Positions 44,847 through 62,477 are shown, counted from the first letter of the stretch. The stretch: DNA of 64,000 nt from Dermatophilaceae bacterium (GCA_046330995.1 JAXLRS010000003.1:373634-437633), one strand, 5' to 3'. Made by a program: numbers and translations. The notes: a model not told the origin generated them from the letters alone.

Positions 44847-45060
44847 GATGCCTCCCGGGTCATGACGGCGCCCGCTGGGCGCTGTTTGCTATGTCAAAAC
44901 GCTACACCCGGCGCAGGAAGGAGGCAGAGCGAGGACGTGGGGGACATCATGGCCGGACAGGCGGCTCGGGCGAACCGGACAGGGCAGGCACAGCTTCGTC
45001 ACACGTTCGTGAGGTTTCCTTGGAGACAGCTCGATCCGCCCACCAGAGAGAGATGTCGCG

Positions 45061-45576: not shown

Positions 45577-45607
45577 TGTTCCGCACCCGAGTGCACCGCG
45601 AGCCTCA

Positions 45608-45628
45608 ACCCCCCTGCGGCCGGGGGGT
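45608..45628. terminator. hairpin between convergent genes
   Basis: ACCCCCC-7 nt-GGGGGGT, between the stops at 45576 (+) and 45689 (-). Confidence 0.5.
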
Positions 45629-45688
45629 GCGTCCGCTGGCGAGTCAGCGGCATACGGACTCCGGGCAGGTTCGCCGCCGCGACGGCGC

Positions 45689-46645: not shown

Positions 46646-46787
46646 CGCGACTCTCCCGTGATCGATGGCGCCGATGACTCGGCACTCTAGGGGCTGACGC
46701 GAGCGGCGTCGTGGGTCCGGCGGAATGACGCCGCCGATGACCAGAAAGTGACCGAAGCCGAGGTGGCCGAGGTGGCGGGCGGTCGGT

Positions 46788-47420
46788 TCAGGGGGCGACG
46801 TGATCCTGGAGCCAGGCGCGCAGGGGGGTGAGGGTGCGCCATACGGCCGCGACCTCATCTCGGGTCCGGGGCGTCGAGAGCCACGGTGGCACGCCGAAAT
46901 CGCGCATGAGGAAGAGTTCTTTGCGGCGCAGCAGGGCGATGCGCGGGTGATCCTTGGCGAAGCCTCGCGGTGCGGTCGCGACCTGCTCGCCGTGCGGCGC
47001 GAAACCGGCGCCCTCGAGGCCGGCCATGATCGCGACAAGAGACAGACCGGACTCGGGGGCATCGACAGCGGCCCGGAACCGGCGGGTCAGGTCGCTCGAC
47101 GCGGCCCGGAATCCGCCACCGGCGACGAGACCGTCCGCGCTGATCCCGAGATAGAGACCGAGGGTGGTGTCCCGGCCGACGATCGCGCCCTGATGATCCT
47201 TGTAGGGCGATTTGTCGGCGCTGAAGCGGACATCCCGGTTGGGGCGGAACACCTTCGCCTCGCCGAATTCGTCGGCGAGGTCATCGAGGAGTGCCTCGAG
47301 GGGGCCGCGGACGGCCGCGGCATACGTCTGCTTGTGCGCCTGCCAATAGTCGCGGGAATTGTCCTGCTCGAGTCCCGCATAGAAGGTGATCGCCTCGGGC
47401 GGGAAACCGGTGAACGCCAT
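46788..47420 (-). CDS. DUF2461-family protein
   Basis: MAFTGFPPEAITFYAGLEQDNSRDYW is a typical DUF2461 (TIGR02453-like) N-terminus. Confidence 0.75.
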   Translation of the reverse strand: MAFTGFPPEAITFYAGLEQDNSRDYWQAHKQTYAAAVRGPLEALLDDLADEFGEAKVFRPNRDVRFSADKSPYKDHQGAIVGRDTTLGLYLGISADGLVAGGGFRAASSDLTRRFRAAVDAPESGLSLVAIMAGLEGAGFAPHGEQVATAPRGFAKDHPRIALLRRKELFLMRDFGVPPWLSTPRTRDEVAAVWRTLTPLRAWLQDHVAP

Positions 47421-47553
47421 GCGGGCAATTCTGCCGGGGTTCACGTCGACCTGCCGTGATCGGTGAGTGATACTGCGGCTATAGCCGCATTTTCACTCAC
47501 CGATCGCGCGGCGGAGGAGTGCAGACCCGGCGACCGGTGTCCGGCATACGGGA

Positions 47554-49359
47554 TCAGGCGTCGAGGCGCTCCTTGAGGCCATCGAGCTCAGCGGCGAGAG
47601 GGGCGGGGAGTTTGTCGCCGAACTTGGCGAACCACTCCTCGATCAGCGGGAGTTCCTTCCGCCAGTCCTCGACGTTGACGGCGATCGCCTTGGCGACGTC
47701 CTCGTCGGACATGTCGAGGCCGGTGGTGTCGAGGGCGCCCGGCGCGGGGACCAGGCCGACCGGGGTCTCGACGGCCTCGGCGTCGCCGTCGAGGCGCTCG
47801 ACGACCCACTTGAGGACGCGGCTGTTGTCGCCGAAGCCCGGCCACAGCCACTTGCCGTCCTCGTCCTTGCGGAACCAGTTGACCTGGAAGATCCGCGGGA
47901 GCTTGGAGGCGTCGGCCTGCTTGCCGATTTCGAGCCAGTGGTTCATGTAGTCGCCCGCGTGGTAGCCGATGAACGGGAGCATGGCCATCGGGTCGCGGCG
48001 CACGACACCGACCGCGCCCGTCGCCGCCGCGGTCGTCTCGGAGGAGAGCGTCGCCCCGACGAAGGTGCCGTGGGTCCAGTCGCGCGATTCATAGACCAGC
48101 GGGACGGTCGTGGCGCGGCGGCCACCGAAGAGGATCGCGTCGATCGGGACACCGTCGGGGTTGTCGTATTCGTCGGCGATCATCGGGCACTGCTTGGCCG
48201 GAGTGGTGAACCGGCTGTTGGGGTGCGAGCTGAGGACGCCACTCTCGGGGGTCCAGTCGTTGCCCTTCCAGTCGATCAGGTGGGCCGGCTTCTCCTTGGA
48301 GATGCCCTCCCACCAGACGTCGCCGTCGTCGGTGCGGGCGACGTTGGTGAAGATCGAGTTGCCCTTGTCGATGGTGCGCATCGCCATCGGGTTGGTGCTC
48401 ATGCCGGTGCCGGGGGCGACGCCGAACAGACCGAACTCGGGGTTCACGGCATACAGACGACCGTCGGGACCGAAGCGCATCCACGCGATGTCGTCACCGA
48501 TCATCTCGGCCTTCCAGCCGTCGATCGTCGGCTCGAGCATGGCGAGGTTGGTCTTGCCGCACTGGCTCGGGAAGGCGCCGGCGACGTAGTGGACGCTGCC
48601 CTTGGGCGAGGTGAGCTTGAGGATGAGCATGTGCTCGGCCATCCAGCCGTCGTCGCGGGCCATCGCCGAGGCGATCCGCAGGGCGTAGCACTTCTTGCCG
48701 AGGAGGGCGTTGCCGCCGTATCCCGAACCGTAGGACCAGATCTCGCGCGTCTCGGGGAAGTGCGCGATGTATTTGGTGTCGCTGCACGGCCACGGGACGT
48801 CGGCCTCGCCCTCGTCGAGGGGCGCGCCGACGGAGTGGAGACCCTTGACGAAGTCGGCGTTCAGCTCCTCCATCTTCTCGAGGACGGGCGTGCCGATCCG
48901 GGCCATGATCTTCATATTGACCACGACGTATGCCGAGTCGGTGATCTCGACGCCGAACATCGGGACGGTCGCGTCGAGGTGGCCCATGACGAAGGGGATG
49001 ACATACATCGTGCGGCCCTTCATGCAGCCGCGATAGAGGTCGGTCATCGTCGCCTTGAGTTCGACCGGGTCGATCCAGTTGTTGGTCGGGCCGGCGTCCT
49101 CCTCCTTGACCGAGGCGATATAGGTCCGGTCCTCGACGCGCGCGACGTCACTCGGGTCGGAGGCGCACCAGTAGGAGTTGGGTTTCTTCTCGTCGTCGAG
49201 CTTGACGAAGGTGCCCGAGGTGACCAGGTCCTGGTTGAGCTGCTCGATCTCCTCGTCGGTCCCGGTGATCCAGACGACGCGGTCGGGCGTGCAGAGTGCC
49301 GCCACCTCGTCGACCCACGCCTGAAGGGCGGTGTTGCTCGTGGCGGTCTCGGTTGTCAT
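47554..49359 (-). CDS. pckG: phosphoenolpyruvate carboxykinase (GTP)
   Basis: 601 aa from [18 protein letters not shown], the kinase-1a [11 protein letters not shown] motif and WMRF. Confidence 0.95.
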
Positions 49360-49529
49360 GCTCGGTGTCCTCCATACTGTGTGGCGAGGCCCCTTGCCCC
49401 ACAATGATTCCCGCGCGGCCGCCGGTCAGTGGAGACACCGGAACAGCCGCATGGCGGCTTCTGTCGTCCACGGTAGCCCAGGCCCGTTCGCGACCCGCCG
49501 GTGGAAGCGCTTCCCATGTGTGGATCTCC

Positions 49530-49604
49530 TCACAGGCCTGGCGACGGAGTGGACAGGCCTGGCGACGGAGTGGACGACTTCGACGTCCATCCGAGACGTG
49601 TCAT
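49530..49604 (-). pseudogene. 5-prime remnant of a WXG100-domain gene
   Basis: The RBS and first codons are homologous to the gene starting at 57388 (MTRLG- vs MARLGMDVEVVESV) with a 1-nt deletion. An internal 21-bp tandem duplication is followed by a stop. Confidence 0.6.
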
Positions 49605-49655
49605 CGACCTCGGGCTCCTTTCAGCCCGTCGCCGACGAGCCTGAAGGACCACGGG
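49561..49655. repeat. left copy of an approx 95-bp direct repeat (WXG100 gene start region)
   Basis: Aligns by eye at roughly 85% identity with 57344-57440. Confidence 0.8.
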
Positions 49656-50123
49656 ATTCACCGCAGGCGAGGGTGCGGCTCGTTGGCATGACAAAGCCTT
49701 TGGGCGACGTGGCCACGCCAAGGACGCTTTCAGTACCGCCACGACGGTCCGGACGTCAAGAACGTCGGCGAGTCTGCTGCGTCACATTCACGCGTCGGAG
49801 CTCTGGCGTGGTGCCACACTCAAAGGTGGGCTTCGGTAGGGATCAGCAGGTCGCTCGCGGCCCACAGAATGGACGGCGTCATGGCCTCACGCGCGGATCG
49901 CCCGACCTTCCTCCTCCGTATCCGACGGGTGCACCGCCGGATCAATCCGGCCCGAGCCTGGGCGCAGCCGTGGCCTTGAGCCCGCGGCGCTGAGCCAGCT
50001 GCAGCTCCGACGTGTCGCGAGCCGCATTCCCTTTGGTACCGACGCGTTACCGGCCGTCAATTGACGCTGGCGTGGTCGGGACGGCAGCAATCTCACCCAC
50101 GAGCCAGGAGAACTGCCCCTTCT

Positions 50124-50176
50124 CTCCGTGGCCACACGTCCATTTCCCTTCGCTCCGTGGCCACACGTCCATTTCC
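50124..50176 (+). promoter_or_regulatory. two 24-bp direct repeats upstream of the membrane-protein array (candidate operator)
   Basis: CTCCGTGGCCACACGTCCATTTCC at 50124-50147 and 50153-50176, ending 21 nt before the ATG at 50198. Confidence 0.5.
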
Positions 50177-50197
50177 GATGATCTCGAGGAGTACCCC

Positions 50198-50911
50198 ATG
50201 ACCGACACGATCACCGCGGCAGAACCAGCCGTGGTGGATACGGAGCTGAAACGCACGGCCCGGACCACTGGGGCCCTGTATCTTGCGTTCTTCGTCGCAG
50301 GGATCCTCGGGACCTTCGTCATTCGCGGACAGTTGTTCGTGGATGGGGATCCCGCAGCCACCCTGTCCAACCTCACCAGGCTCGAGGGGCTCGCGCGACT
50401 AGGTATCGCTCTCGAGCTCGCCATCGTCGTGGCCCAGGCCCTGACGGCACTCTGGTTCTATCGCCTGTTCCGTGGCGTCGACCGTGTCGCTGCGGCCGCG
50501 CTGGTGCTGTTCGGGATGGCCGGCGCGACGGCCATCCTCGGCAGCGCGGCGCTGCTCGCCACCGCACACGAGGTGGCCGCCGACACCTCGCTGGCCACCG
50601 GCGTCGGCGCGGCCGGGACGGTACAGCTGCTCTACGTCGCCAGCGGTCACGTGTGGGGGGTTGCCGCGGTCTTCTTCGGGCTCTGGCTCATCCCCATGGG
50701 GTGGCTGGTCCTGCGCTCGCGATGGCAGCCGAAGGCGCTCGGGTGGATCCTCATCCTGGCCGGGTTCGGGTACGTTCTCAGCGCGTTCGCGGCATACCTG
50801 CTGCCGGACACCGGCCTCAGCCAACTCCTCACGCTGCCGTCCATCGTCGGCGAGGTGTGGATCATGGGCTACCTGCTCACCGTCGGCATCGCACACCGTC
50901 ATGGGCGCTGA
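50198..50911 (+). CDS. DUF4386-family membrane protein (paralogue 1)
   Basis: ATG at 50198 after GAGGAG. Polytopic, with the typical GALYLAFFVAGI and LGWILILAGFGYV segments. Confidence 0.75.
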   Translation: MTDTITAAEPAVVDTELKRTARTTGALYLAFFVAGILGTFVIRGQLFVDGDPAATLSNLTRLEGLARLGIALELAIVVAQALTALWFYRLFRGVDRVAAAALVLFGMAGATAILGSAALLATAHEVAADTSLATGVGAAGTVQLLYVASGHVWGVAAVFFGLWLIPMGWLVLRSRWQPKALGWILILAGFGYVLSAFAAYLLPDTGLSQLLTLPSIVGEVWIMGYLLTVGIAHRHGR

Positions 50912-51650
50912 AGCAACGACCCGTCCAGGCGTCACCGCACCGCGCGCCGATCCGTTCTGGGCGAGGCTGGAGCGCACAGGCGGGATCGCGGGTCTGGTGT
51001 TCGTCGTGATGGTGCTGGTCGCGCTCGTTCTGATGGTCGTTGCCCCGGTGCCACCGGCCGAGGGCGGACCGCTGCTGGCCTACGTCGCCGCGCACAAAGG
51101 CGTCTACCTCACGGAGCTGATCTGTTTCGTCGGCTTGAGCGTGCCAGCGATGGTCGTCTTCGTCGCCGTCGCCAGGGCGCTCATGGGATCCGACAGAAGC
51201 ATCGCCCTCATCGGCGGGATCCTCGGGGTCGCGGCGGAGACCGTTGCGCTGGCCGTGGGCAGCAGTCCCCAGTCGTTGCACGGCGGCCTGGTCATCCTGA
51301 GCAACTCCTACGCCGCCGCAGAGAGCGACGCCGAGCGCGCCAGCCTGGTCAGCGCCGCGGATGCGCTCATCGCGGCAACCAACGGAGCGCCCTGGGCGGG
51401 AGTGCTGACCGCCGCCGCCATCCTGGTCCTGTCCGCGTTGATGCGGCAGGGGGACTTCGGTCGGACACTCGCCGTTGTCGGGATGATCACGGGCGCGCTG
51501 GGCATCGTCAGCGAGGCATTCAGAACGGTGATCGGCCCGGCCTACCTGCTCTATGGCCTGTTGTTGCCGCTGTGGTTCGCCCTGGTAGGACGCCGGCTGT
51601 TCACGTGGGGCCGCAAGGGCACTTCGTCCTTCCCGGACGCGACCGGGTAG
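50901..51650 (+). CDS. DUF4386-like polytopic membrane protein (paralogue 2)
   Basis: The ATG overlaps the upstream stop. Six predicted helices with the same architecture as its neighbours. Confidence 0.65.
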   Translation: MGAEATTRPGVTAPRADPFWARLERTGGIAGLVFVVMVLVALVLMVVAPVPPAEGGPLLAYVAAHKGVYLTELICFVGLSVPAMVVFVAVARALMGSDRSIALIGGILGVAAETVALAVGSSPQSLHGGLVILSNSYAAAESDAERASLVSAADALIAATNGAPWAGVLTAAAILVLSALMRQGDFGRTLAVVGMITGALGIVSEAFRTVIGPAYLLYGLLLPLWFALVGRRLFTWGRKGTSSFPDATG

Positions 51651-51670
51651 GCAGATGCAGGGAGTCCATC

Positions 51671-52468
51671 ATGAAACCGACGCGCAGGATCTCCATCATC
51701 GCGGGGACGCTGTTCATCCTCGCTACCTCCGGCACCCTGATCGCCGAGGGCATTGCCCCCGAGCTGACCGGAACCGATTACCTCGCCGGTGTGGCCGCAG
51801 GGTCGGGCACGATGGCCACCGCGCTCCTCCTGCAACTGTTCGCAGCGGGGTGCAGTGTCGGCATCGCCATCGTGTTGTATGCCGTGTTGCGTCGCACCCA
51901 CCCGACCCTTGCCCTGGGTGCGGTCGTCTTTCGCGCGATCGAAGCGGTCTTCTATCTCGTCGGAGTCGTGAGCCTGATGACGGTGCTCAGCATCGCCACT
52001 GCCCACGCCCCGGCGGCCGGGGGACCGTCCCCCTGGCAGACCGTAAGCGACACGCTGCGGTCTGCTCACGATCGGGCCGGCGTCGTCGCGGTGAGCGCTT
52101 TCGTCGTCGGCGGGCTTCTCTATTACATCGCCCTCTACCGGACCCGTCTCATCCCGCGCTGGCTGTCCGGGTGGGGCATTGCAGCGCTTCCCTTGATGGG
52201 CATGGCCTGCGGCCTGGCGGTGTATGCCGACGCGCCGGTGACGAACTACGTTCCGCTTGCCGCACCGATCGGCATCCAGGAGATCGTCTTCGGCATCTGG
52301 CTGCTCGCCAAGGGCTTCGACGCGGTCGAACCCAGCCAGCACGGATCGGTCGCGACCTCGGCCGACCAATGTATCGCCAGCCGTCCAGTGCAGGCCGCCA
52401 CGCCGGGAAGGGGCCAAGCCCGATCGGGCACGGCTGCCAGCGACGCACCGATCCCAATCCGTGAGTGA
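51671..52468 (+). CDS. DUF4386-family membrane protein (paralogue 3)
   Basis: LIPRWLSGWGI and IQEIVFGIWLLAKGF motifs. Pro/Ala-rich tail. Confidence 0.75.
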   Translation: MKPTRRISIIAGTLFILATSGTLIAEGIAPELTGTDYLAGVAAGSGTMATALLLQLFAAGCSVGIAIVLYAVLRRTHPTLALGAVVFRAIEAVFYLVGVVSLMTVLSIATAHAPAAGGPSPWQTVSDTLRSAHDRAGVVAVSAFVVGGLLYYIALYRTRLIPRWLSGWGIAALPLMGMACGLAVYADAPVTNYVPLAAPIGIQEIVFGIWLLAKGFDAVEPSQHGSVATSADQCIASRPVQAATPGRGQARSGTAASDAPIPIRE

Positions 52469-52478
52469 GGAAACCGCC

Positions 52479-53318
52479 ATGTCGACCCACATCCCATCCC
52501 AATTCGCCCCGCCTTCGTATCGAGGAAACGCCATCGCCGCAGGAGTGCTGCTCATCGTCTGCACGGTCATCAGCATCCTGAGCGCCGCACCCCTGGGCTC
52601 AACCCTGGACAACGGGGACTACCTCGCCCAGTTGCCGTCGCGGGAGAGCAGTGTGCTACTCAGCGCCGTCCTGGAGTTCGTGTGGGCAGCCACGGGGGTC
52701 GGGATCGCTGTCGCGTTGTACCCGGCCCTGCGCAGTCACAACCGTGGGCTGGGCCTGGGCGCTGTCGCCGGAAGGCTGGTCGAGGGCGTGTTCGTGATGG
52801 TCGGCTCCCTCGGCCTGCTGGCGGCGTTGACCGTGGGCCAGCATGCGCAGACAGCAGGCACGCCAGGGCCGGCGGCCCAGGCCGCCGGAGACTCCATGAT
52901 GGCCCTGCGCCACTGGGCGCTCGGGTTCCTCGGACTGCTCACGTTTCTCACCGGGGCACTCATGTACTACCTCGTGCTGTTCAACGCGCGACTGTTGCCG
53001 CGCTGGCTGGCGGGATGGGGCATCGCGGCGGTGGCACTCTCCTATGTCGCTACCCTCCACGCCGGCTACACCCAGGCCTTCGGGTTCTCCACGGTCAACA
53101 CCGTGCTCAACGTCCCGATCCTGCTTCAGGAGATGGTCATGGCGGTGTGGTTGATCGTCAGAGGGTTCACCCCCCCTCGCGCATGCGAACCCGAGCTTCT
53201 CGCCGCCATCGCCACCGATCCAGCCGGTGACCGCACGACAGCGCCGGTCGGCGCGACCGGCACCACATCCACCCCGGTCGCTGCCGCGTCCGGCCAAACC
53301 CCTGTCCCTCGTCACTGA
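52479..53318 (+). CDS. DUF4386-family membrane protein (paralogue 4)
   Basis: LLPRWLAGWGI and LQEMVMAVWLIVRGF. Clearly paralogous to 51671..52468. Confidence 0.75.
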   Translation: MSTHIPSQFAPPSYRGNAIAAGVLLIVCTVISILSAAPLGSTLDNGDYLAQLPSRESSVLLSAVLEFVWAATGVGIAVALYPALRSHNRGLGLGAVAGRLVEGVFVMVGSLGLLAALTVGQHAQTAGTPGPAAQAAGDSMMALRHWALGFLGLLTFLTGALMYYLVLFNARLLPRWLAGWGIAAVALSYVATLHAGYTQAFGFSTVNTVLNVPILLQEMVMAVWLIVRGFTPPRACEPELLAAIATDPAGDRTTAPVGATGTTSTPVAAASGQTPVPRH

Positions 53319-53330
53319 ACGGAGCGCATC

Positions 53331-54068
53331 ATGTCAACCACCCTCCCATCGGCGGTCATGGAGTCCACCGGGACCGATCCCCCGGCACCGCCGTCCACGG
53401 CATACCCGCTGCAACTCGACGCGACCTTGGATGAGCCGCTGTCCAGGTGGCTGTGGCTCGTCAAGTGGCTGCTGCTGATCCCGCACTACCTGGTGTTGGT
53501 CGTGCTCTACGCCGGCTACCTGGTGGTCACGGTGATCGCGTTCGTGTCGATCCTGGTGACCGGACGATATCCGCGCTGGGCGTTCGACTACACCAGCGGC
53601 GTGCTGCGCTGGTCGTGGCGGGTGCAGTACTACGGCTACAGCGCTCTGGCCACTGACCGTTATCCGCCGTTCACCCTCGCCGACGTGCCGGACTACCCGG
53701 CCCGGCTGACCATCGCCTATCCCGAACACCCCTCGCGTGGAAAGGCTCTGGTCCAGTGGTGGCTGCTGCCGATACCGCACTTCCTCGTCCTTGCCATCCT
53801 CATCGGATCACAGTCCTCCACCGGTGACGGCGGCTGGGAACAGGGGACCAGCGTGCCGGGGCTGATCGGCCTGTTGGCGTTCTTCGCCGGTATCGCCCTG
53901 CTGTTCACAGCGTCCTACCCCCGCGGCCTGTGGCGTTTCGTCGTCGGCCTCAACAGATGGGTATTCCGGGTCATCGCCTACGCCAGCCTGCTGACGGACC
54001 GTTATCCGCCATTCCGTCTCGATCAGGGTGGCCGCGAGCGTGACAACGACATCGAACCCCGTAGGTGA
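53331..54068 (+). CDS. DUF4389-family membrane protein
   Basis: Duplicated LxIPHYLVL ... TDRYPPF modules. Confidence 0.75.
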   Translation: MSTTLPSAVMESTGTDPPAPPSTAYPLQLDATLDEPLSRWLWLVKWLLLIPHYLVLVVLYAGYLVVTVIAFVSILVTGRYPRWAFDYTSGVLRWSWRVQYYGYSALATDRYPPFTLADVPDYPARLTIAYPEHPSRGKALVQWWLLPIPHFLVLAILIGSQSSTGDGGWEQGTSVPGLIGLLAFFAGIALLFTASYPRGLWRFVVGLNRWVFRVIAYASLLTDRYPPFRLDQGGRERDNDIEPRR

Positions 54069-54414
54069 TCCGAGCCCACAGGCTCGGCACCACGAACCGA
54101 CGACGCAAGCCCCGGCCCACTGGCGGCGGACCTTCGTCTGGCTGACCCTGGCGGGGGCGGCGGGCTTCTGGCTGGCGAACCTGGCGATCTCGTCGACGTC
54201 CATTGCGGCGGACTACCGGTCCGCCGCGTTCGCCGCGGCGACCGACCGCCCGCGGCGCTACCTGCTCATCGGCACCATGCTCAACGCCGTCCGCAGCACC
54301 GCTCTCGGCGTCGCCGTCGGGTATGGCGCCGAGCGCCAGCTCCGCGGTAAGGGCCAGGGGTCCTCCGGTGCTCACTCGGCCCCCCACAACACCGAAAGGC
54401 CGGATACGTCATGA
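54028..54414 (+). CDS. small hypothetical membrane protein
   Basis: High G/C third-position bias and one clear TM helix (TFVWLTLAGAAGFWLANLAI). Start uncertain (54028 or GTG near 54040). Confidence 0.45.
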   Translation: MAASVTTTSNPVGDPSPQARHHEPTTQAPAHWRRTFVWLTLAGAAGFWLANLAISSTSIAADYRSAAFAAATDRPRRYLLIGTMLNAVRSTALGVAVGYGAERQLRGKGQGSSGAHSAPHNTERPDTS

Positions 54415-54692
54415 CTCGCCGTCGCCTGCTCCCCGAAGGCTTCTTCGGGCCTGTCGACTATGCCGCTCGCACCCCTTACCGTCGTCCGCCGGGCTTCTAT
54501 CGACGGCTTCAGTCGATCGCGCCGTTCTTCAGGAGGCTCGGCATCACCCCCGCTTACGTGGTCGAGCTCGAAGTGCCGGGCCGTCGCACCGGTCAGCCAC
54601 GCAGGACCCTGGCCTTGGTTCCCCACGGCTTGTCACTGATCACCGCGTCCCGGCCCCACAGCGGTCACGTCGTGGCCGCGAGGGTCGGCTGA
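54411..54692 (+). CDS. short ORF resembling the N-terminal half of a DUF385/deazaflavin-dependent nitroreductase-family protein
   Basis: ATGA overlap with the upstream ORF. VELEVPGRRTGQPRRT resembles the conserved GRxSGxxRxTP segment. Only 93 aa, so probably truncated. Confidence 0.35.
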   Translation: MTRRRLLPEGFFGPVDYAARTPYRRPPGFYRRLQSIAPFFRRLGITPAYVVELEVPGRRTGQPRRTLALVPHGLSLITASRPHSGHVVAARVG

Positions 54693-54723
54693 CGTGTTCC
54701 GTCAACGAAGCGAGGAGATCGCA

Positions 54724-55455
54724 ATGACGAACATCCACACAGCCACACCGCAGGCCACGACTCCGGAGAGGACCAACTCGTGGCGAATGGGCGGCCTCGC
54801 CGCCTTGGCTGGAGCGGCGACGAATCTCACCGGCCTGGCCGTGTTCACAGCCCTCCTGCTGCCGAACGGACTAGGCGACACCGAGGCCGCCCCCGGCACA
54901 GTGGTGGGGCTCCTTGCCGACAATCACACCGCCATGCGCGCGTGGTACATCATCATCTACCTGGTCTTCGGCGCCTGCCTCGTCGTCCTGTCGCTGTCGC
55001 TCTCGGACCACCTCGAGTCTCGATCCGCCCTGGCGCACGCCGCGACCACCCTGGGCCTGATCTATGCGGTGCTGGTCATCGTCATCGGTACCCTGCAGAT
55101 CACCGACCTGGACACGGTGGTCAGGCTCCATGGCCAGGACCCGGCACAAGCCGCCACCGCATACACCACGCTCAACTCCGTCGAAACCGGCCTGGGCGCC
55201 GGAGGCGGAGAGACGATCACCCTCGCGCTGTGGCTGCTGATGCTCAGCTGGGCAGCGCTGGGGGCCCGGGAACTCCCACGGTTGCTCAACTACCTGGGCC
55301 TGCTGCTCGGTGCAGCGGGCATCTTCTCGGTGCTCCTGAACTCCCTGCTGCTGATGTCGGTCAGCGGTCTCGGCCTCATCATCTGGCTGTTGTGGCTCGG
55401 CATCGCCATGCTTCGCGAGGGCCGGCGGGCGACCGACCCTCCGCACCGACCGTGA
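54724..55455 (+). CDS. DUF4386-like polytopic membrane protein (paralogue 5)
   Basis: ATG at 54724 after GAGGAG. Six hydrophobic segments, ELPRLLNYLGLLLGAAGI. Confidence 0.65.
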   Translation: MTNIHTATPQATTPERTNSWRMGGLAALAGAATNLTGLAVFTALLLPNGLGDTEAAPGTVVGLLADNHTAMRAWYIIIYLVFGACLVVLSLSLSDHLESRSALAHAATTLGLIYAVLVIVIGTLQITDLDTVVRLHGQDPAQAATAYTTLNSVETGLGAGGGETITLALWLLMLSWAALGARELPRLLNYLGLLLGAAGIFSVLLNSLLLMSVSGLGLIIWLLWLGIAMLREGRRATDPPHRP

Positions 55456-55533
55456 CGACCGACCGATCCACCAACCGGCAGCGGCGGAGTAACGACATTC
55501 GCAAGATCACCCCATCGGATCGATTCCGATGCC

Positions 55534-56034
55534 ATGGAAACGGAGTTGATGGACATGTCCACCATGCAAGCGACACGCACAGCGCCGACCCTCGGGAAGC
55601 GCCGGGACGACCCGGTCAACGTCAAGGTCATCCTGAGCGGACTGTGGACGGCGATGCTGTTCGTCTTCGCCTACGTCGACATCTTCGCCTACCTGCGCGC
55701 CGACGTCCTGCACGCGGCGATGGCCGGGAAGGTGGCGACCACAGGGTTCACGGTCAACCAGACCTTCCTGGCGCTCACCTTGATATACATCCTCGTGGCG
55801 GCGTTGATGGTGCCCCTGTCCTTGGTGCTCGGAGCCAGGGTCAACCGGGTTGTCCAATTCGTTGTGAGCGTCGCCTACACCATCACCATCATCGCCGCCG
55901 CGGCCGGCGAGTCGTGGGCGTACTACATCGTCGGCAGCGTCGTCGAAGTCCTGTTGCTGGTGGCGATCTTCCGGATCGCCTGGAAATGGCCATCGGCCCC
56001 CGTCCGACACGACGACGCGAACCAGCAGGCATAA
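55534..56034 (+). CDS. DUF6326-family membrane protein
   Basis: VKVILSGLWTAMLFVFAYVDIF and C-terminal YYIVGSVVEVLLLVAIFRIAWKW match my memory of the family. Confidence 0.65.
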   Translation: METELMDMSTMQATRTAPTLGKRRDDPVNVKVILSGLWTAMLFVFAYVDIFAYLRADVLHAAMAGKVATTGFTVNQTFLALTLIYILVAALMVPLSLVLGARVNRVVQFVVSVAYTITIIAAAAGESWAYYIVGSVVEVLLLVAIFRIAWKWPSAPVRHDDANQQA

Positions 56035-57388
56035 GCCTCACGCCGCAGAGGGTGGGCCGAACCGTGGCCGCGTCGGTCTGTGGGCTGGTCCACCTTCCGG
56101 ACGAGCCGTTGGATCTGGTGACCGAGATCAACGAGCGGGTCTTCGCGCCGCTGATCAAAGACCTGATCATCCGAGGCAACCAGGCTGCCTCATGGCACGT
56201 GCCGGACCCGGGCGCGACCGCACGGTATTGCGTCGTCATCGACATCGAAGCCATCAACCGGCTCCGAAGCGAGCCGGCCCGGGACCCGGAGCGCTCGGCC
56301 GTGGAGGCCATGCTCCGGCTGCTGGGCGCACCCAACGACAGCGAAAGCGAGCCGACGCTGATCTTGCTTCCGCAGTTGCGTCTTGCCGCCCACCTGACGC
56401 TGGCCGTCGCCGCTCTGTGGTGATCCACGTGTGGCGCCCTGACCGGCCGTAGCGCCTCTGGGCGAGGCTTGTAGCAGGCGACTGCATCCGCGACTGCGCT
56501 CATGATCGAGGAGCCCGTCGAGACGGAACTGGTCGGGACCGCGTGCGCGCGGGTGTAGACGTCGGCGAGGAAGGCGCCCGCCTCTCGGTCGTATGCCGAG
56601 ACCACGCCCGGCACCATCTCGGGAGTGAGCTTCTCGACAACGGCGCCGCGCATCTCCGCGCCAGCCCAGCCGGCGGCCCCCTTGGCCGCTCCCTCGGCGA
56701 CGAGGCCCGCGGCATGGCCCACCGACAGCGTGCTGAGATCGGTTGTCGAACCTCCTGGGACTCCCGCCTTGATCGTGCCATAGACGGCCTCGACCTGTGC
56801 CTTCGACATGTCATCGAAGTTGTCCGCCGCGATCGTCGCGAAATCGTGGACCTTGGACCGGTTCCCGCTGGCCAGGCTGAGCAGGTAGCAGTATTTCTGA
56901 AAGGCGGCCACTTCGGCGGCGCTCGGATTGGGATTGTTCCGGAGTTCCTTGCCCCACGCCTCGGCCCTGGCATAGGCCTGCGGGTAGTGGTCCTTGATGC
57001 CCGACTGCCCGATCACCTTCAACCGCGTGGCGATGTCGTTGACCTGCTGCTCGGTCGCCGGCTCATCGCGGCGCCATGGGTCATGTCGCCGAGGCGCCGG
57101 TGCGCCGCCGACGGCGCCGGTCGACTCACTCGCGCGGCGTTGCTCGGCCGCCTGCCGCTGGGCCTGGCGTGCATAGTCGTCGATCGCCTGGGCCAACTGG
57201 TCGAGGTGCCGGTGCTGGCGCTGCCAGTCACCGACCAGGGCCGACGCGTCGCGGCCGATCCACACTTCTTGGGCCCGGCGCAGGGATCGGTCCAGAGCGG
57301 ATGTGATCGACCTGAGGGCGTGCGCGGCTGACGTCAACTCCTTGGCGACGGACTCGACGACTTCGACGTCCATCCCGAGACGTGCCAT
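55889..57388 (-). CDS. WXG100-domain fusion protein with no stop codon of its own (3-prime truncated or chimeric)
   Basis: The N-terminal approx 95 aa form a helical hairpin with W-x-G (EVWIGRD). The sequence looks like a real protein to about 56450. Below that the ORF is the antisense shadow of the + strand genes. Confidence 0.55.
   Translation of the reverse strand: MARLGMDVEVVESVAKELTSAAHALRSITSALDRSLRRAQEVWIGRDASALVGDWQRQHRHLDQLAQAIDDYARQAQRQAAEQRRASESTGAVGGAPAPRRHDPWRRDEPATEQQVNDIATRLKVIGQSGIKDHYPQAYARAEAWGKELRNNPNPSAAEVAAFQKYCYLLSLASGNRSKVHDFATIAADNFDDMSKAQVEAVYGTIKAGVPGGSTTDLSTLSVGHAAGLVAEGAAKGAAGWAGAEMRGAVVEKLTPEMVPGVVSAYDREAGAFLADVYTRAHAVPTSSVSTGSSIMSAVADAVACYKPRPEALRPVRAPHVDHHRAATASVRWAARRNCGSKISVGSLSLSLGAPSSRSMASTAERSGSRAGSLRSRLMASMSMTTQYRAVAPGSGTCHEAAWLPRMIRSLISGAKTRSLISVTRSNGSSGRWTSPQTDAATVRPTLCGVRLMPAGSRRRVGRGPMAISRRSGRSPPATGLRRRCRRCSTPTTRRPRRR
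56052..56423 (+). CDS. hypothetical soluble protein
   Basis: Balanced composition (DEPLDLVTEINERVFAPLIKDLIIRG...). The overlapping minus-strand reading is Ser/Arg-rich shadow. GTG at 56052 or 56064. Confidence 0.5.
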   Translation: MGRTVAASVCGLVHLPDEPLDLVTEINERVFAPLIKDLIIRGNQAASWHVPDPGATARYCVVIDIEAINRLRSEPARDPERSAVEAMLRLLGAPNDSESEPTLILLPQLRLAAHLTLAVAALW

Positions 57389-57440
57389 CGACCTCGTGCC
57401 CCTTTCAGTCCCGTGCCCCGACGAGCCTGAAGGACGACGG
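57344..57440. repeat. right copy of the approx 95-bp direct repeat (WXG100 gene start region)
   Basis: See 49561..49655. Confidence 0.8.
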
Positions 57441-57564
57441 AGATCACGTCACGTCCAACGTTCGGGGGGCACGGGGGGCGCCAAGCCACCCACGGCAGGG
57501 CCGAGGCCATGCGAGGGTGCGGTGGAGGAGGACGACCGCGGTGCCCCGAGCGGCTGACGGTCGA

Positions 57565-58026
57565 TCAACCCGCGGACGTCCCCGACGTCGCCGTCGTCGA
57601 GCGCGCCGAGCCGTTGGCCCTCGCGCTCACGGTGGCAGTCCCGCCGGCGTCGAGGTTGACGATCTCGACCTCACACCGGGCGCTCCCCTCGCCGTGCTCG
57701 GTCACATGTGCCCGAGCCTCGAGCACGCCGTTGCGGGCCGCTCGCAGGTAGGTGACGGAGACCGTCTCCGTGAGCACACTCGGCCCGAGCACCGATCCGG
57801 CCGCGAACGTCAGCGCGTTGTCGGCGAGGTAGGCATGGACCCCGCCGTGGACGAGCCCGAACTGCTGGCGGTGGTCGTCGCCGATCGCGAGCCGGAGGAC
57901 CGCGTGACCGTCGCCGAAGGCCGTGATCTCGGTCCCGAGGAGGCGCGAGAACGGCTGGGCCGCCAGGATGGTTCGAGCCAGGTCGAGCCGAGCGTCCGGG
58001 TCATCCGGGACGAGGTGGGGGGCCAT
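57565..58026 (-). CDS. PaaI-family hotdog-fold thioesterase
   Basis: QPFSRLLG...GLVHGGVHAYLADNA, a typical PaaI core. Confidence 0.8.
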   Translation of the reverse strand: MAPHLVPDDPDARLDLARTILAAQPFSRLLGTEITAFGDGHAVLRLAIGDDHRQQFGLVHGGVHAYLADNALTFAAGSVLGPSVLTETVSVTYLRAARNGVLEARAHVTEHGEGSARCEVEIVNLDAGGTATVSARANGSARSTTATSGTSAG

Positions 58027-58052
58027 GACCCCATTATCGGGCGCTGCGGCGG

Positions 58053-58874
58053 CTAGTGCGGGACCTCACCGAGCCGGACGTATGCCGCACGCAACACCTC
58101 GACGAGCCCGTGACCGCCGACCATCAGCTTTGTGGGTGGCACCTGGTCGAGCAGGGCGTCGCTCGGCGCGGCGATCGGCATACGGGATGGCAGTGGTGCC
58201 TGGAGCGCGAAGAAGGAGTCGAGGCACTCGATGAGCGGCACGACGTGCTCGGCGTCGGCGGGTCGGTCGACCGGGTACGTGCCAGTGCGCAGCGCGGCCA
58301 GCGTCTCGAGCAGGTCCGCGCGGGTGCGCCCGCGCCACGCGAGGATGCCGAACGGGTCCTCGTCGAAAGACTCGGCCAGCAGATAGAAGGCGGCCGCGAT
58401 GTGTTTGCAGGGCACCGACCAGTCCGGGCAGGTGCAATCCAGCGACAGCGCGCCCGCGCTGGCGGGGAACAGCGAGAGCCCGACCGAGGCGAAGGCGTCC
58501 TCGATGTCTTCGGGCATCTCGCCGGCGAGGAGCCGCGCGATGTACCACGCGTCGCGCGCGAGCTCCTCGGTGACGCGCGCCCACGCGGATTTGTCGAAGG
58601 GTGTGACGGCGATTCGCACGCGATAGGGCCGGGCGCGGGTGCCCTGGACCCATGCGCTCACCGCCCCCGGTTCGATGGTGAGGTCGATGACCTGCCCCTT
58701 GCGGGCGTATGTGCGACCCCGCTGGAGGCGCGCGCCGACACCGAGCGACTCGAGCACGGCGATGAACCGCTCGGACCACCAGGTCTGGGCGATCGCCCCG
58801 CGTCGGCTCCGGGCGCGTATGCCGTCCGCGACCGGCCGCGGCTTGGCCGGGGGTGGGTACCAGCGGCTACTCAT
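58053..58874 (-). CDS. SWIM zinc-finger protein
   Basis: CTCPDWSVPCKHIAA SWIM motif. Overlaps the stop of the upstream SNF2 gene by 8 nt. Confidence 0.85.
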   Translation of the reverse strand: MSSRWYPPPAKPRPVADGIRARSRRGAIAQTWWSERFIAVLESLGVGARLQRGRTYARKGQVIDLTIEPGAVSAWVQGTRARPYRVRIAVTPFDKSAWARVTEELARDAWYIARLLAGEMPEDIEDAFASVGLSLFPASAGALSLDCTCPDWSVPCKHIAAAFYLLAESFDEDPFGILAWRGRTRADLLETLAALRTGTYPVDRPADAEHVVPLIECLDSFFALQAPLPSRMPIAAPSDALLDQVPPTKLMVGGHGLVEVLRAAYVRLGEVPH

Positions 58875-61800
58875 CGGTGGCGTCCTCGGCGAGGGCGAAC
58901 AGGTCGCGCAGCGCGCCCGTCGACAGTTCGGTCAGCCAGCCCTCGCCATCGGTCACGACACTGTTCGCGAGGGCCTTCTTGTCCTCGATCATCGCGTCGA
59001 TCTTCTCCTCGAGGGTCCCCACGCAGACGAACTTCCGCACCTGGACGCGGCGCTTCTGACCGATCCGGAACGCGCGGTCGGTGGCCTGGTTCTCGACGGC
59101 CGGGTTCCACCAGCGGTCGAGGTGGATGACGTGGTTGGCGGCGGTGAGGTTCAGCCCGGTGCCGCCCGCCTTGAGCGAGAGGAGGAACAGCGGTGGGCCG
59201 TCGTCGGACTGGAACCGCGTGACCAGCTCGTCACGGCGCTGCTTCGAGGTCCCGCCGTGCAGATAGAGGATCTCGGTGTCGAATCGGGCAGACAGATGCG
59301 GCAGAAGCAACTCGGCGAAGTCGGTGTACTGCGTGAACAGCAGGGCCTTGTCGCCCTCGGCGAGGATCTCCTCGACGATCTCCTCCAGGCGGGTCACCTT
59401 GCCCGACCGCCGGCCGATGGGCGAGTGGTCGTGGAGCAGCTGAGCGGGGTGATTGCACACCTGCTTGAGTTTGGTCATCGCCGCCAGGACGTTTCCGCGC
59501 CGCTCGATGCCGGTGCTGGTCTCGATTCGCCGCATCATCTCATCGACGACCGACTGATAGAGGGCCGCCTGCTCGATGGTCAGGCGGTAATGCTGCGTGA
59601 TCTCGATCTTCTCCGGCAGGTCGTCGATGATCGTCGGGTCCGTCTTGACCCGGCGAAGGAGATAGGGGCGGGTGATCGTCCGCAGCCGGCCGGCGGGCTC
59701 GGTCTCTCCGTGGCGTTCGATCGGCACGGCATACCGCGCGCGGAACTTCTCGGCAGACCCGAGGATCCCCGGGTTGAGCACATCCATGATCGCCCAGAGT
59801 TCGGACAGCCGGTTCTCCATCGGGGTTCCGGTCAGGGCCACGCGATGGCGGGCAGGCAGCCGCCGCACGGCCCGCGCGGCGCGCGACTGGCTGTTCTTGA
59901 CCGCCTGCGCCTCGTCGAGAACGAGCCGTTCCCAGTCGTATGCCGCGAGCTCGTCGATGTCGCGTGTGGCGGTGTGGTAGGTGGTCACGACGAGATCGGC
60001 GGTGGCCAGGTGGTCCGCGAGGTCCGTCCCATGGCAGCGTTCCCGGCCGTGATGCGGATAGAGGCGCAGGTGCGGGGCGAAGCGGGCGGCCTCGCGCTGC
60101 CAGTTGCCGACCAGGGACATCGGGCACAGCAACAGGGTGGGGCGGGCGACGGGGCGTTCGCTGCGTTGGTGGCTTTCCAGGGCCAGCAGTTGGATCGTCT
60201 TGCCGAGCCCCATGTCGTCCGCCAGGCAGGCACCCAGGCCGAGGTCGGCGAGGAACGCCAGCCAGGACAGTCCCCGGGTCTGGTAAGGCCGCAGGTCCGC
60301 ATGGAAACCGTCGGGAGTGGCGAGGGGTTGCAGGGTCCGTTCGGCGGAGCCCGTGAGCAGGTCGCCCAGGGGACCGTCGGCGTGGATCGCCATGACCGGC
60401 AGCGGCGTGTCGAGGTCGTCGGGATGGCGGGTGGCCAGCGCGATGACCTCGCCGACCGTCGAGGGGCGAGCGGCCTGACGGGCGAGGAAGTCCAGCCCTC
60501 GCTGCAGCTGGTCGGGGTCGACGACGACCCATTGGCCGCGCAGCCGGACGAGGGGCGCCTTGGTGGCGGCGAGCGCGGCCAGTTCCTCGTCGGTCAGCGC
60601 CTCGTCGCCGACGGCGAGCTGCCACGCGAAGTCCACCAGGGAGTCCCGGCCGAACCGGCCTCCGGTCACCGTCGAGTCGGTCGGGGTGGATGCGGAACCG
60701 CGCAGGCCGAGGCGCTGCCGATGCGACCACCAGGCCGGCAGGAGGACCCCGAACCCGGCCTGGTCGAGGAGGGCGGCTCGGCAGGTGAGGAAGTCGTGGG
60801 TGCCGTGGAGGTCGAGGGCGAGGGCGTCAGGGTGGGAGGTGTGCAGAGCATCGATGAGCGCGGGATAGATCGTGCTCGCCCGGCCGAGTTCCGCCAGGAG
60901 CAATTCGTCGGGGCGGCTCAGCCAGCGGGCGAGCCCGTCGCCGCCGCTCCACACCTGCTCCGCGGCCACGAGCAGGGTGGGGTCCTGCGCCGACTGAAGC
61001 CAGAACTCCAGCCGCCAACGGGGCGCGGGCGAATCAGAGGAATCGCCGAGGTCCCCAAGGGCGGAGTCGGAGTCGGGTTCCGCGAGGCGGAAGGTCAGTC
61101 GCGCCGGGCCGGCCGGCCCGGCGCCGAACTGGGCCCACGGCGCCAGCGCCTCGGCGAGGGCGGCCACCTCGTTGGGTGTGGCCTCGAACTCGGCCACCGG
61201 TGAGGTGAGGGCGAGGAGCCAGGCGTCGGTGGGCGGCATACGTCTCGGTCGTCGGCCGCGACGCGGCGGCGGCAGGCGAGTGCTCTCTAGACGCCGGCGG
61301 ACGACGGCGTCGGTGAAAGTGGCGGTCGCGTCGCCGACCAGGGCGGTGGGGCTCTGACCGGCCGGGTCGCCGGACGCGGGGGCCTCGGCGCGGCATACGG
61401 GGGGCAGCGCAGCGGAGAGTGCGGCGGCGACGACGACGTCGGGACCTTGGAGGACCGGGCGCCAGCGTGCCTGCGGCGGCGTGTGCTCATCGCCCGGTTG
61501 GACGTCCGGGAGCACCCGGCCGCGCTCGGCCAGATCACGGGCGAACGCGGCGATGTCGGCGAGGTGGTGCATGGAGACGCCGTAGCGGGCCTCGATGATC
61601 GGCAGGTCGAGGACGTCGAGCGCCGACCTCGGATCGACGCGGACCACCGGCACGGTCCAGGGCAGCAGGATCGGCGGCTTCCCGCTCTCCCGGCGAGGCC
61701 GAAGTCGCGGAACCTCGGGTGAGTCGAGGGGCGAGCGGCTCGTGGACGGCAGCAGGAGCGTGGCCGTGCCGGGTGCCCCGGTCAGGCCGGGCACCGCGTC

Positions 61801-62476: not shown

Positions 62477-62477
62477 G

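What the first reader, a model, noticed from the sequence alone, without database searches (positions are those of the whole stretch)
49533..57445. About 95-bp direct repeats of a WXG100 gene start bracket a 7.7-kb segment
The segment 49561-49655 aligns at about 85% identity with 57344-57440. Both include the RBS (AAAGGAG vs AAAGGGG on the minus strand), the start codon and the first approx 14 codons of a WXG100-type gene, plus about 50 nt upstream. The right copy heads a long gene. The left copy is a dead stub next to the pckG upstream region. Everything between them (a non-coding low-G+C stretch, the ten-gene membrane-protein array, and the body of the WXG100 gene) has only four copies of the otherwise ubiquitous octamer. 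This is the signature expected after Campbell-type integration, duplication or cassette exchange through the shared effector 5-prime end.
Basis: partly seen in the sequence, partly recalled or inferred. Interest (0 to 1): 0.7.

Follow-up and report, generated by a model that had tools for sequence, protein, structure and literature searches.

The report
Foreign cassette truncates a WXG100 gene
The two ~100-bp repeats are real, but they are not integration sites: a 7-kb piece of DNA from a related bacterium, which carried a scrap of its own copy of the same secretion-substrate gene, replaced the tail of the resident gene, so this is an ordinary strain-level insertion.

Summary
The repeat exists: window 49560-49661 matches 57343-57447 at 88.7% identity, far above chance. 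It covers 59 nt of leader, the RBS and about 15 codons of a WXG100-family gene.

The repeats do not bound the variable DNA. A near-identical strain (L001/L002, 99.7-100% identical flanks) and a related species (L003) have an intact 392-397-aa WXG100 gene directly upstream of pckG. In the window, 6,959 bp (49539-56497) replace 331 bp: the last 95 codons, the stop codon and 43 nt.

The resident gene is cut at codon 297 and reads on through 202 antisense codons. The left repeat is the far end of the insert, 11% divergent and frameshifted. It meets pckG upstream DNA at a junction that carries a 21-bp tandem duplication.

The insert is a mosaic with no mobility genes. It holds DUF4386, DUF4389 and DUF6326 membrane-protein genes, a fused reductase remnant and an inverted TetR C-terminal remnant. 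Its nearest relative is a Nostocoides MAG at about 86%, in another genomic context.

The topology contradicts Campbell-type integration or cassette exchange through the shared 5' end. The most likely origin is foreign DNA from an unsampled relative, joined illegitimately. The finding is ordinary, and the donor is unresolved.

The parts
47554..49359 (-). pckG (GTP-dependent PEP carboxykinase, 601 aa). Native left flank of the rearrangement.
   Evidence: Translation. PEPCK_N/PEPCK_GTP Pfam families on the identical gene in L012. NCBI name MFN8098931.1, Dermatophilaceae bacterium MAG.
49360..49538 (.). Native pckG upstream region, retained. It is 100% identical to the intact allele up to 49538, which is the left junction J1.
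   Evidence: L001 6212-7131 and L002 1588-2183 match window 49538 downwards at 100%. L003 1657 onwards matches at 94%.
49539..56497 (.). The 6,959-bp strain-variable insert. It replaces 331 bp of the intact allele: 95 codons plus the stop of the WXG100 gene, and 43 nt of intergenic DNA.
   Evidence: Colinear comparison with L001, L002 and L003. The insertion allele is spanned by more than 20 independent contigs at 99.93-100% identity.
49532..49575 (.). Exact 21-bp tandem duplication (2.1 copies) spanning junction J1. Each unit contains both stub-derived and pckG-upstream-derived bases, so it arose at or after junction formation.
   Evidence: Tandem Repeats Finder. Junction read-out. No contig that spans this stretch differs from the window here.
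49560..49661 (-). Left repeat: an imported stub of a divergent WXG100-family gene. It has 59 nt of leader, the RBS AAAGGAG, an ATG at 49604 (frameshifted by a 1-nt deletion), a second ATG at 49590 and about 10-15 codons.
   Evidence: It is 88.7% identical to the resident 5' end. It shares two variant bases with L003 (ATGAC, GCCAGG) that the resident copy lacks.
49662..49748 (.). 87 nt of unknown origin between the stub and the array's upstream region (internal junction J2).
   Evidence: No significant similarity to the resident locus, L003 or L022.
49749..50197 (+). Non-coding region upstream of the first array gene. It is homologous (68-70%) to the region upstream of the same gene in the Nostocoides MAG L022. 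It contains a 29-bp tandem duplication at 50117-50176, which is single-copy in L022.
   Evidence: No Rfam family, promoter or terminator consensus was found.
50198..50911 (+). G1, a DUF4386 membrane protein (237 aa).
   Evidence: Pfam PF14329, E = 3e-49. 85-86% aa identity to L022/P0007.
50901..51650 (+). G2, a 249-aa membrane protein with no Pfam hit. It is mostly deleted from the array in L022, which has a 64%-identical paralogue elsewhere in the locus.
51671..52468 (+). G3, DUF4386 (265 aa).
   Evidence: Pfam E = 6e-36.
52479..53318 (+). G4, DUF4386 (279 aa).
   Evidence: Pfam E = 8e-37.
53331..54068 (+). G5, DUF4389 (245 aa).
   Evidence: Pfam E = 6e-19.
54028..54414 (+). G6, a small ORF of unknown function (124-128 aa).
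   Evidence: GC3 frame signal. No Pfam hit. The N-terminal 43 aa are 58% identical to an L022 ORF.
54411..54692 (+). G7, a deletion-fusion remnant. Residues 1-67 are the N-terminus of an F420H2-dependent quinone reductase. Residues 71-92 are the C-terminus of a 101-aa membrane protein.
   Evidence: blastp against L022 genes gives 92.5% and 91%. PF04075 hits the full-length L109 gene. Breakpoint at 54610/54611.
54724..55455 (+). G8, a divergent DUF4386 protein (243 aa).
   Evidence: Pfam E = 3e-7.
55534..56034 (+). G9, DUF6326 (159-166 aa depending on the start chosen). Homology to L022 ends 54 nt after its stop, at 56088 (internal junction J3).
56064..56423 (+). G10, the C-terminal half of a TetR-family regulator with no HTH domain (homology spans 56100-56357). 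It is inverted and sits at the opposite end of the array compared with the full-length divergent TetR of L022/L109.
   Evidence: tblastn/blastp: residues 98-183 of the L022 TetR, 59% aa and 71% nt identity. TetR_N hits the L109 protein. No HTH part anywhere in the window.
56424..56497 (.). 74 nt of unknown origin, ending at the right junction J4 (56497/56498).
56498..57388 (-). Resident WXG100-family gene, codons 1-297. It is 99.7-99.9% identical to the intact allele.
   Evidence: Minus-strand GC3 coding signal only from about 57388 to about 56420. N-terminal helical hairpin with the WXG turn in a low-confidence model.
55889..56497 (-). Non-native tail of the truncated gene: 202 Arg/Ser-rich codons read antisense through G10 and G9 before the first stop.
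57343..57447 (-). Right repeat: the resident 5' end (15 codons) and 59 nt of leader of the WXG100 gene.
   Evidence: None of the mismatches between L001/L002 and the window falls in this stretch.
57565..58026 (-). PaaI/4HBT thioesterase. Native right flank.
   Evidence: Pfam PF03061. NCBI name MFN8098942.1.

Best explanation
The repeat is a by-product of a replacement insertion, not a recombination site.

Ancestral state: thioesterase -> WXG100-family gene (392 aa) -> pckG.

In the lineage of this window, a 6,959-bp fragment of foreign DNA from a related Dermatophilaceae genome replaced the last 95 codons, the stop and 43 nt downstream. No donor has been sampled. In that donor, a copy of the same gene family (about 11% divergent at its 5' end) lay divergently next to a TetR-associated DUF4386/DUF4389/DUF6326 membrane-protein operon.

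Both ends were joined without using the repeat:
- The right junction fuses resident codon 297 to DNA downstream of a TetR remnant.
- The left junction fuses about codon 15 of the imported gene copy to pckG upstream DNA. At most 2 nt of microhomology can be inferred there, and a 21-bp duplication was made at the joint.

Shown: the two alleles, the exact breakpoints, the ancestral state, the mosaic and decayed content of the insert, and the absence of mobility genes.

Inferred: the donor arrangement. Also inferred is that homology of the donor's orthologous locus guided the DNA to this site, while resolution was illegitimate. This may have taken two steps: a full second gene copy first, then a deletion that left the stub.

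Consequences: the type VII-type substrate gene is inactivated or C-terminally scrambled. The strain gains a membrane-protein operon whose regulator has lost its DNA-binding domain.
For: - Alleles and breakpoints. L001 1-5880 matches window 62377-56498 (99.86%) and L001 6212-7131 matches 49538-48619 (100%). L001 5881-6211 (331 bp) is replaced by window 49539-56497.
- L002 shows the same.
- L003, a related species, has the WXG100 gene (397 aa) directly followed by pckG. It is collinear with L001 at 86% over 2.2 kb, so the intact state is ancestral.
- Protein alignment. The window product is identical to the 392-399-aa homologues up to about residue 297 and unrelated afterwards. The GC3 frame analysis shows plus-strand coding under the tail.
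- The stub is 88.7% identical to the resident 5' end, whereas the two alleles differ by 0.14% or less in the flanks. The stub shares two variant bases with L003.
- The insert has no integrase or transposase.
- Its nearest relative is the array in Nostocoides sp. MAG L022 (matching L109) at 85-92% nt identity, in a different context beside a full TetR.
- Decay inside the insert: the TetR remnant is inverted and relocated, and G7 is a deletion fusion.
- Octamer density in the insert (0.57/kb) resembles L022 (0.63/kb), not the host (1.3-1.4/kb). Three of its 4 copies are at positions orthologous to L022.
- The insertion allele has its own SNPs and occurs in dozens of samples, so it is established and not an artefact.
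Against: - No donor was found. None of the 80 loci with G1 relatives has a homologue of this WXG100 family nearby.
- There are no 90-99% relatives of G1 or of the TetR remnant among 5.8 billion proteins.
- Two scans of the JGI metagenome contigs found nothing.
- That the insert carries a piece of a homologue of the very gene it disrupts is explained only by the untested assumption that the donor DNA came from the orthologous locus.
- The number of steps cannot be resolved.
- The 87-nt and 74-nt end pieces have no known source.
Confidence: 0.7

Rival explanations
1. Campbell-type integration or cassette exchange. A circular or linear element carrying the effector 5' end recombined homologously with the resident 5' end, duplicating it on both sides of the inserted DNA.
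For: Two direct repeats of the gene's 5' end lie 7.78 kb apart with foreign DNA between them. The segment is polymorphic among strains.
Against: - The boundaries of the variable DNA lie at 49538/49539 and 56497/56498, not in the repeats.
- The right copy is 100% resident and the left copy is entirely imported, so there are no hybrids.
- A single crossover in the 5' end would leave an intact gene next to pckG. Instead the 3' 288 nt are missing from the whole window.
- The stub is on the 3' side of the resident copy, with its truncated end abutting pckG.
- A Campbell version can be rescued only if the crossover and the circle junction both fall at codon 297 and a second deletion followed.
Confidence: 0.05
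2. Intragenomic origin. The array and a paralogous WXG100 gene are native elsewhere in the same genome, and a copy (or the segment itself) moved into the WXG100-pckG locus by illegitimate recombination.
For: - The G+C content and GC3 pattern of the insert are host-like.
- The octamer is present in the insert, although at about half the host density.
- Related genomes (GCA_052034185.1) carry both an array (L109) and a WXG100-family gene (L102), though on different contigs.
Against: - No paralogue of the WXG100 protein with the stub's N-terminus exists in the protein collection, which includes assemblies of the same samples. Only 5 family members were found.
- Contigs run uninterrupted through the array in more than 20 assemblies, so a second identical copy is unlikely.
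- All 23 contigs read for each exact-match look-up of G1 and G10 show this one context.
Confidence: 0.12
3. Local tandem duplication of the resident 5' end, followed by divergence. Alternatively, the insertion allele is ancestral and the intact allele was derived from it by deletion.
For: The repeats are direct and lie in the same locus.
Against: - The copies differ by 11%, against 0.14% or less between the alleles' flanks.
- The intact allele contains 331 bp that are absent from the window, so it cannot arise by deletion.
- The outgroup L003 has the intact arrangement.
Confidence: 0.03
4. Assembly artefact: a chimeric contig joining unrelated DNA.
For: One short Logan contig (L113) does switch to unrelated DNA inside G10. 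This shows that chimeras occur in these data.
Against: Both junctions are spanned identically by contigs from many independent samples and by three sources: Logan, ENA and an NCBI MAG contig of 498 kb.
Confidence: 0.01

Closest known systems
Acquisition of foreign DNA by illegitimate or homology-facilitated illegitimate recombination (HFIR; definition as in PMC3240628)
   Same: Foreign DNA without mobility genes replaces a short resident stretch. The joints show little or no homology, and one carries a small junction duplication. The foreign DNA carries a segment homologous to the target locus.
   Different: In classical HFIR the homologous anchor recombines with its resident counterpart and is not left as a second copy. 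Here the homologous piece survives as a separate, truncated, 11%-divergent stub, and both visible joints are illegitimate. One-sided homologous recombination is therefore not demonstrated.
Sequential displacement of secretion-system effector genes (Vibrio cholerae T6SS effector/immunity arrays, PMC5361080; retrieved by search, title and abstract only)
   Same: A secreted-substrate locus is remodelled by incoming DNA from relatives. Gene fragments are left behind as fossils of the event.
   Different: No new effector or immunity pair arrives here. The cargo is a membrane-protein operon on the opposite strand. The fossil is a 5' fragment of the incoming gene, not a retained immunity gene or 3' module. 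The resident gene is destroyed rather than replaced.
Campbell-type single-crossover integration
   Same: Two direct copies of a gene's 5' end flank foreign DNA.
   Different: - The breakpoints do not lie in the repeats.
- Neither copy is a hybrid.
- No intact gene copy remains.
- 331 bp are deleted.
WXG100 superfamily proteins with C-terminal extensions (NCBI name for the P0005 cluster: 'WXG100 family type VII secretion target')
   Same: - An N-terminal helix-turn-helix hairpin of about 85 residues with W-x-G at the turn.
- Distant homologues (46-48% identity) lie between EccC-like FtsK/SpoIIIE ATPase genes and 90-aa WXG100 genes.
   Different: The window's gene is an orphan between a thioesterase gene and pckG, with no T7SS gene in the 64 kb. 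Its Pfam score is below the gathering threshold. In this genome it is truncated.

Membership tests
Campbell-type (single homologous crossover) integration | The inserted DNA is bounded exactly by the two repeat copies. | tested here: not met
   The variable DNA is 49539-56497. The right boundary is about 850 nt from the right repeat, and the left repeat lies inside the insert.
Campbell-type (single homologous crossover) integration | Each repeat copy is a hybrid of resident and incoming sequence, and one complete gene copy is regenerated. | tested here: not met
   The right copy matches the intact allele with no mismatch. The left copy differs throughout. The 3' 288 nt of the gene are absent from the window.
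Site-specific integrative element (genomic island or prophage with att sites) | An integrase or recombinase gene in the element, and identical att core repeats at both ends, often at a tRNA gene. | tested here: not met
   - No recombinase among the ORFs of the insert.
- No tRNA in 44000-64000.
- The repeats are 88.7% identical with indels and are not at the ends of the variable DNA.
Transposon or IS insertion | A transposase, terminal inverted repeats and a target-site duplication flanking the insert. | tested here: not met
   - No transposase in the insert. The IS with DDE_Tnp_1 is in L022 only.
- No terminal inverted repeats were reported at the ends.
- The 21-bp duplication is tandem at one junction, not split across the insert.
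- 331 bp of target DNA were deleted.
Polymorphic effector/toxin locus with cassette exchange (conserved 5' part, variable 3' toxin, immunity gene) | Homologues share the N-terminal part but carry unrelated C-terminal modules, each followed by a cognate small gene. Orphan 3' modules occur downstream. | tested here: not met
   - The five close homologues are collinear and conserved to the C-terminus.
- In the intact alleles the gene is followed directly by pckG.
- The fossil here is a 5' fragment.
- Caveat: the WXG100 hairpin alone is shared with over 1,000 proteins that have other C-termini.
WXG100 superfamily / type VII secretion substrate | A helical hairpin of about 100 residues with a central W-x-G motif that matches PF06013. 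| tested here: inconclusive
   - W43-I-G45 is present.
- PF06013 scores 24.1-24.6 bits, below the 27.3-bit gathering score, for the window protein and P0002. It scores 34.4 bits for the homologue P0005.
- The model has helices 8-42 and 46-89 but a mean pLDDT of 54.
- A 90-aa WXG100 protein of L102 aligns at 34% identity, E = 3e-10.
WXG100 superfamily / type VII secretion substrate | Genomic association with T7SS machinery (an EccC/EssC-type FtsK/SpoIIIE ATPase), and secretion. | tested here: inconclusive
   The association is met for the distant homologues P0004 and P0005. It is not met in this window, where no T7SS gene occurs in 64 kb. Secretion cannot be tested with these tools.
Homology-facilitated illegitimate recombination | One end is integrated by homologous recombination in an anchor, and the other end by illegitimate joining at microhomology. 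| tested here: inconclusive
   Both visible joints lack a homologous tract. The left flank is 100% resident right up to the joint. A homologous crossover later erased by the stub-forming deletion cannot be excluded. The donor sequence needed to score microhomology is unavailable.

The most novel reading that the evidence does not exclude
The conserved leader plus first about 15 codons of WXG100-family substrate genes might act as a recurrent homology handle. Such a handle would target incoming DNA from relatives to T7SS-substrate loci, much as effector displacement works at type VI loci. The stub would then be the used anchor of such an exchange. A milder variant is that the imported leader and RBS now supply upstream signals for pckG, which lost its co-directional upstream gene.
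Probability: 0.07. Interest if true: 0.5.

Novelty: new member of a known kind. Interest (0 to 1): 0.2.

Why it matters
The value is modest.
- It documents, at base-pair resolution, a natural knock-out of a putative type VII secretion substrate. The knock-out came with the gain of a membrane-protein operon of unknown function (DUF4386/DUF4389/DUF6326).
- Both alleles are present in public metagenomes of a Dermatophilaceae population. The junctions 49538/49539 and 56497/56498 can therefore serve as strain markers.
- It corrects annotation. The 499-aa ORF is a chimera of 297 real codons plus an antisense tail. The 119-aa and 93-aa ORFs are remnants.
- It shows that a pair of direct repeats around foreign DNA need not be integration scars.

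It does not open a long-standing question.

Tried and rejected
- **Rfam.** A scan of 49300-57700 at E <= 1 gave only two chance-level hits.
- **Promoters and terminators.** Consensus scans of both repeat regions found nothing.
- **Leader RNA folding.** Each leader can sequester its RBS, but z-scores are -0.9 and -1.6 for the two window copies and the folds differ. There is no evidence for a conserved structured leader.
- **Plasmids.** Only single-gene matches at 67-83% were found, and no cassette.
- **Donor search.**
  - A stub-specific 26-mer gave 0 hits in the JGI metagenome contigs.
  - The WXG100 family profile gave 0 relatives in the same collection.
  - G1 relatives in 185,579 species genomes: best 85% (Nostocoides MAG), with no WXG100 homologue within 10 kb in any of 80 loci.
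  - Protein searches with G1 and with the TetR remnant found no intermediate relatives.
- **Octamer depletion** as proof of foreign origin is only marginal (P about 0.04-0.06).
- **End pieces.** The 87-nt and 74-nt pieces have no detectable homologue.
- **Structure.** The model of the intact protein has mean pLDDT 54 (4-sequence alignment). That is too poor for a fold search, so none was run.
- **SNP clustering near the junctions**, as a sign of an extended donor tract, was not seen.
- **L113.** Its alternative junction is judged a probable chimeric unitig, because it is a single 1.85-kb contig.

Full report
**Observation.** The repeat is real. Window 49560-49661 and 57343-57447 align with 94 matches in 106 columns (88.7%) and five gap columns. 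The blastn E-value within the 64-kb window is 1.4e-30, there is no third copy, and the local score is 65 against at most 13 in 200 shuffles. Read on the minus strand, both copies hold 59 nt of leader, an RBS (AAAGGAG in the stub, AAAGGGG in the right copy), the ATG and about 15 codons.

The right copy heads an ORF, 57388->55889, of 499 aa. Its N-terminus hits Pfam WXG100 at 24.1 bits, below the 27.3-bit gathering score, and W43-I-G45 is present. The left copy is dead. A 1-nt deletion puts its first ATG out of frame, and the sequence runs into pckG upstream DNA after about ten family-like codons.

**The long gene is itself broken.** A codon-position G+C profile shows minus-strand coding only from 57388 to about 56420. 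Further left, the signal belongs to plus-strand genes. The protein search found only five family members:
- the identical 499-aa product;
- a 99%-identical 392-aa protein (P0002);
- an 81%-identical 397-aa protein (P0003);
- two 46-48%-identical proteins of 396-399 aa.

The alignment shows that the window product matches them up to about residue 297 and is unrelated, Arg/Ser-rich sequence afterwards.

**Two alleles and the exact breakpoints.** Contigs that encode P0002 (L001, L002) are 99.7-100% identical to the window on both sides. There, the gene is followed after 222 nt by pckG.
- L001 1-5880 equals window 62377-56498.
- L001 6212-7131 equals window 49538-48619.
- L001 5881-6211 (331 bp: 95 codons, the stop and 43 nt) has no counterpart anywhere in the window.
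- In its place the window has 49539-56497, which is 6,959 bp.

A related species (L003, GCA_039812345.1) also has the WXG100 gene directly followed by pckG. It is collinear with L001 at 86% over 2.2 kb, so the uninterrupted arrangement is ancestral.

The insertion allele is not an artefact. More than 20 contigs from many samples and three sources span both junctions at 99.93-100% identity, and they carry their own SNPs inside the insert. The organism is a Dermatophilaceae MAG according to the NCBI names of the identical PckG and thioesterase proteins.

**What the repeats are.** The right copy is plain resident sequence; no mismatch with the intact allele falls in it. The left copy lies entirely inside the insert, at its far end. 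It is 11% divergent, while the two alleles differ by 0.14% or less in their flanks. It shares two variant bases with L003 that the resident copy lacks. It is therefore an imported fragment of a different lineage's gene, not a duplicate of the resident one.

Its truncated end meets pckG upstream DNA at 49538/49539. An exact 21-bp tandem duplication there (49532-49575) contains bases from both partners, so it arose at or after joining. Recombination between the two repeat copies would produce a null allele, not the intact allele.

**Content of the insert.** The insert is mosaic and partly decayed, and it has no integrase or transposase gene.
- It carries DUF4386 genes (G1, G3, G4, G8), an unassigned membrane-protein gene (G2), DUF4389 (G5), a small unknown ORF (G6) and DUF6326 (G9).
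- G7 fuses the first 67 residues of an F420H2-dependent quinone reductase to the last 22 residues of another protein.
- G10 is the C-terminal half of a TetR regulator and has no HTH domain.

The nearest relative of the array is in a Nostocoides MAG (L022, matching L109 of GCA_052034185.1) at 85-92% nucleotide identity. There it sits in a different genomic context, and the full TetR gene lies divergently upstream of the array. In the window the remnant is inverted and at the other end. L022 has its own lesions: a deletion in G2 and an IS insertion.

Pieces of 87 nt (49662-49748) and 74 nt (56424-56497) have no detectable source.

Octamer CGGCATAC/GTATGCCG densities are:
- window: 1.3 per kb;
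- insert: 0.57 per kb;
- L022: 0.63 per kb.

Three of the insert's four copies are at positions orthologous to L022. On its own, the depletion is only marginally significant (P about 0.04-0.06).

**Mechanism.** The topology excludes simple Campbell integration or exchange through the shared 5' end, for three reasons:
- the breakpoints are outside the repeats;
- neither copy is a hybrid;
- no complete gene is regenerated.

I conclude that foreign DNA from an unsampled relative replaced 331 bp through joints that show no homologous tract. The fragment held the array next to that relative's own WXG100-family gene.

The insert carries a piece of a homologue of the very gene it disrupts. This is best explained if the donor DNA came from the orthologous locus, so that flanking homology brought it there while resolution was illegitimate. 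The event may have taken two steps: a full second copy first, then a deletion that left the stub and the 21-bp duplication. This part is inference. No donor was found.

An intragenomic source is the main rival, at about 0.12. The absence of any paralogue in the protein collection speaks against it, as does the uninterrupted assembly of the array.

**The gene family.** The distant homologues P0004 and P0005 lie in type VII secretion loci, between EccC-like FtsK/SpoIIIE-FHA ATPase genes and 90-aa WXG100 genes. NCBI names the P0005 cluster 'WXG100 family type VII secretion target'.

A full HMMER search finds roughly two dozen full-length cluster representatives. It also finds more than 1,000 proteins that share only the N-terminal hairpin. 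The window contains no T7SS machinery gene. The structure model is all-helical with the expected N-terminal hairpin, but its confidence is low (mean pLDDT 54).

**Verdict.** This is an ordinary strain-level replacement insertion that inactivates a putative secretion substrate. One curiosity remains unresolved, namely the imported 5' fragment of the same gene family.

Noticed in passing
whole window; for example 50790, 51877, 52222, 53398, 56591: The octamer CGGCATAC/GTATGCCG (often extended to CGGCATACG) occurs 82 times in 64 kb on both strands (37/45). That is about 34-fold over the base-composition expectation. It is also enriched, less strongly, in Nostocoides/Tetrasphaera-like loci (0.45-0.75 per kb). 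It is nearly or wholly absent (0-0.1 per kb) in the six more distant actinobacterial loci counted.
   Followed up: partly
window 62348-62489; L003 1-77: A 43-bp tandem repeat (3.3 copies, 98% matches) lies upstream of the SNF2 helicase gene, next to a tRNA T-arm-like GGTTCGAATCCC, although ARAGORN finds no tRNA. The same repeat (98.7% identical) lies in L003 about 40 nt from a truncated thioesterase remnant. That species therefore appears to lack the SNF2 gene, the SWIM gene and half of the thioesterase gene at this locus. Contig L001 also ends in this repeat.
   Followed up: partly
window 50117-50176: A 29-bp tandem duplication (CCCTTC[T/G]CTCCGTGGCCACACGTCCATTT x2) ends about 20 nt upstream of the ATG of the first array gene. 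It is single-copy in L022.
   Followed up: no
L113 1722-1851 (Logan ERR13590155): A 1.85-kb contig is identical to window 54495-56215. Inside the TetR remnant it then switches to the end of an ABC-transporter ATPase gene and the start of a permease gene. It is probably a chimeric unitig, but an alternative junction cannot be excluded.
   Followed up: partly
L022 14688-16553: An IS with a DDE_Tnp_1 transposase (621 aa) interrupts the homologous array in the Nostocoides MAG, at the place where the window has the G7 deletion fusion. This part of the array is rearrangement-prone in both lineages.
   Followed up: partly
window 45397-45522: Two adjacent arrays of 15-bp tandem repeats (GGGCCGGGGACGAAT; CAGGGATTGCCGGGC x5). 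They lie roughly 170-290 nt downstream of the stop (45689) of the PD40/DPPIV-like gene.
   Followed up: no
window 56577 and other SNP sites: The T variant at 56577 that marks the intact allele (L001, L002) also occurs in two insertion-allele contigs (L014, L015). This suggests recombination or shared ancestral polymorphism between the two alleles.
   Followed up: no
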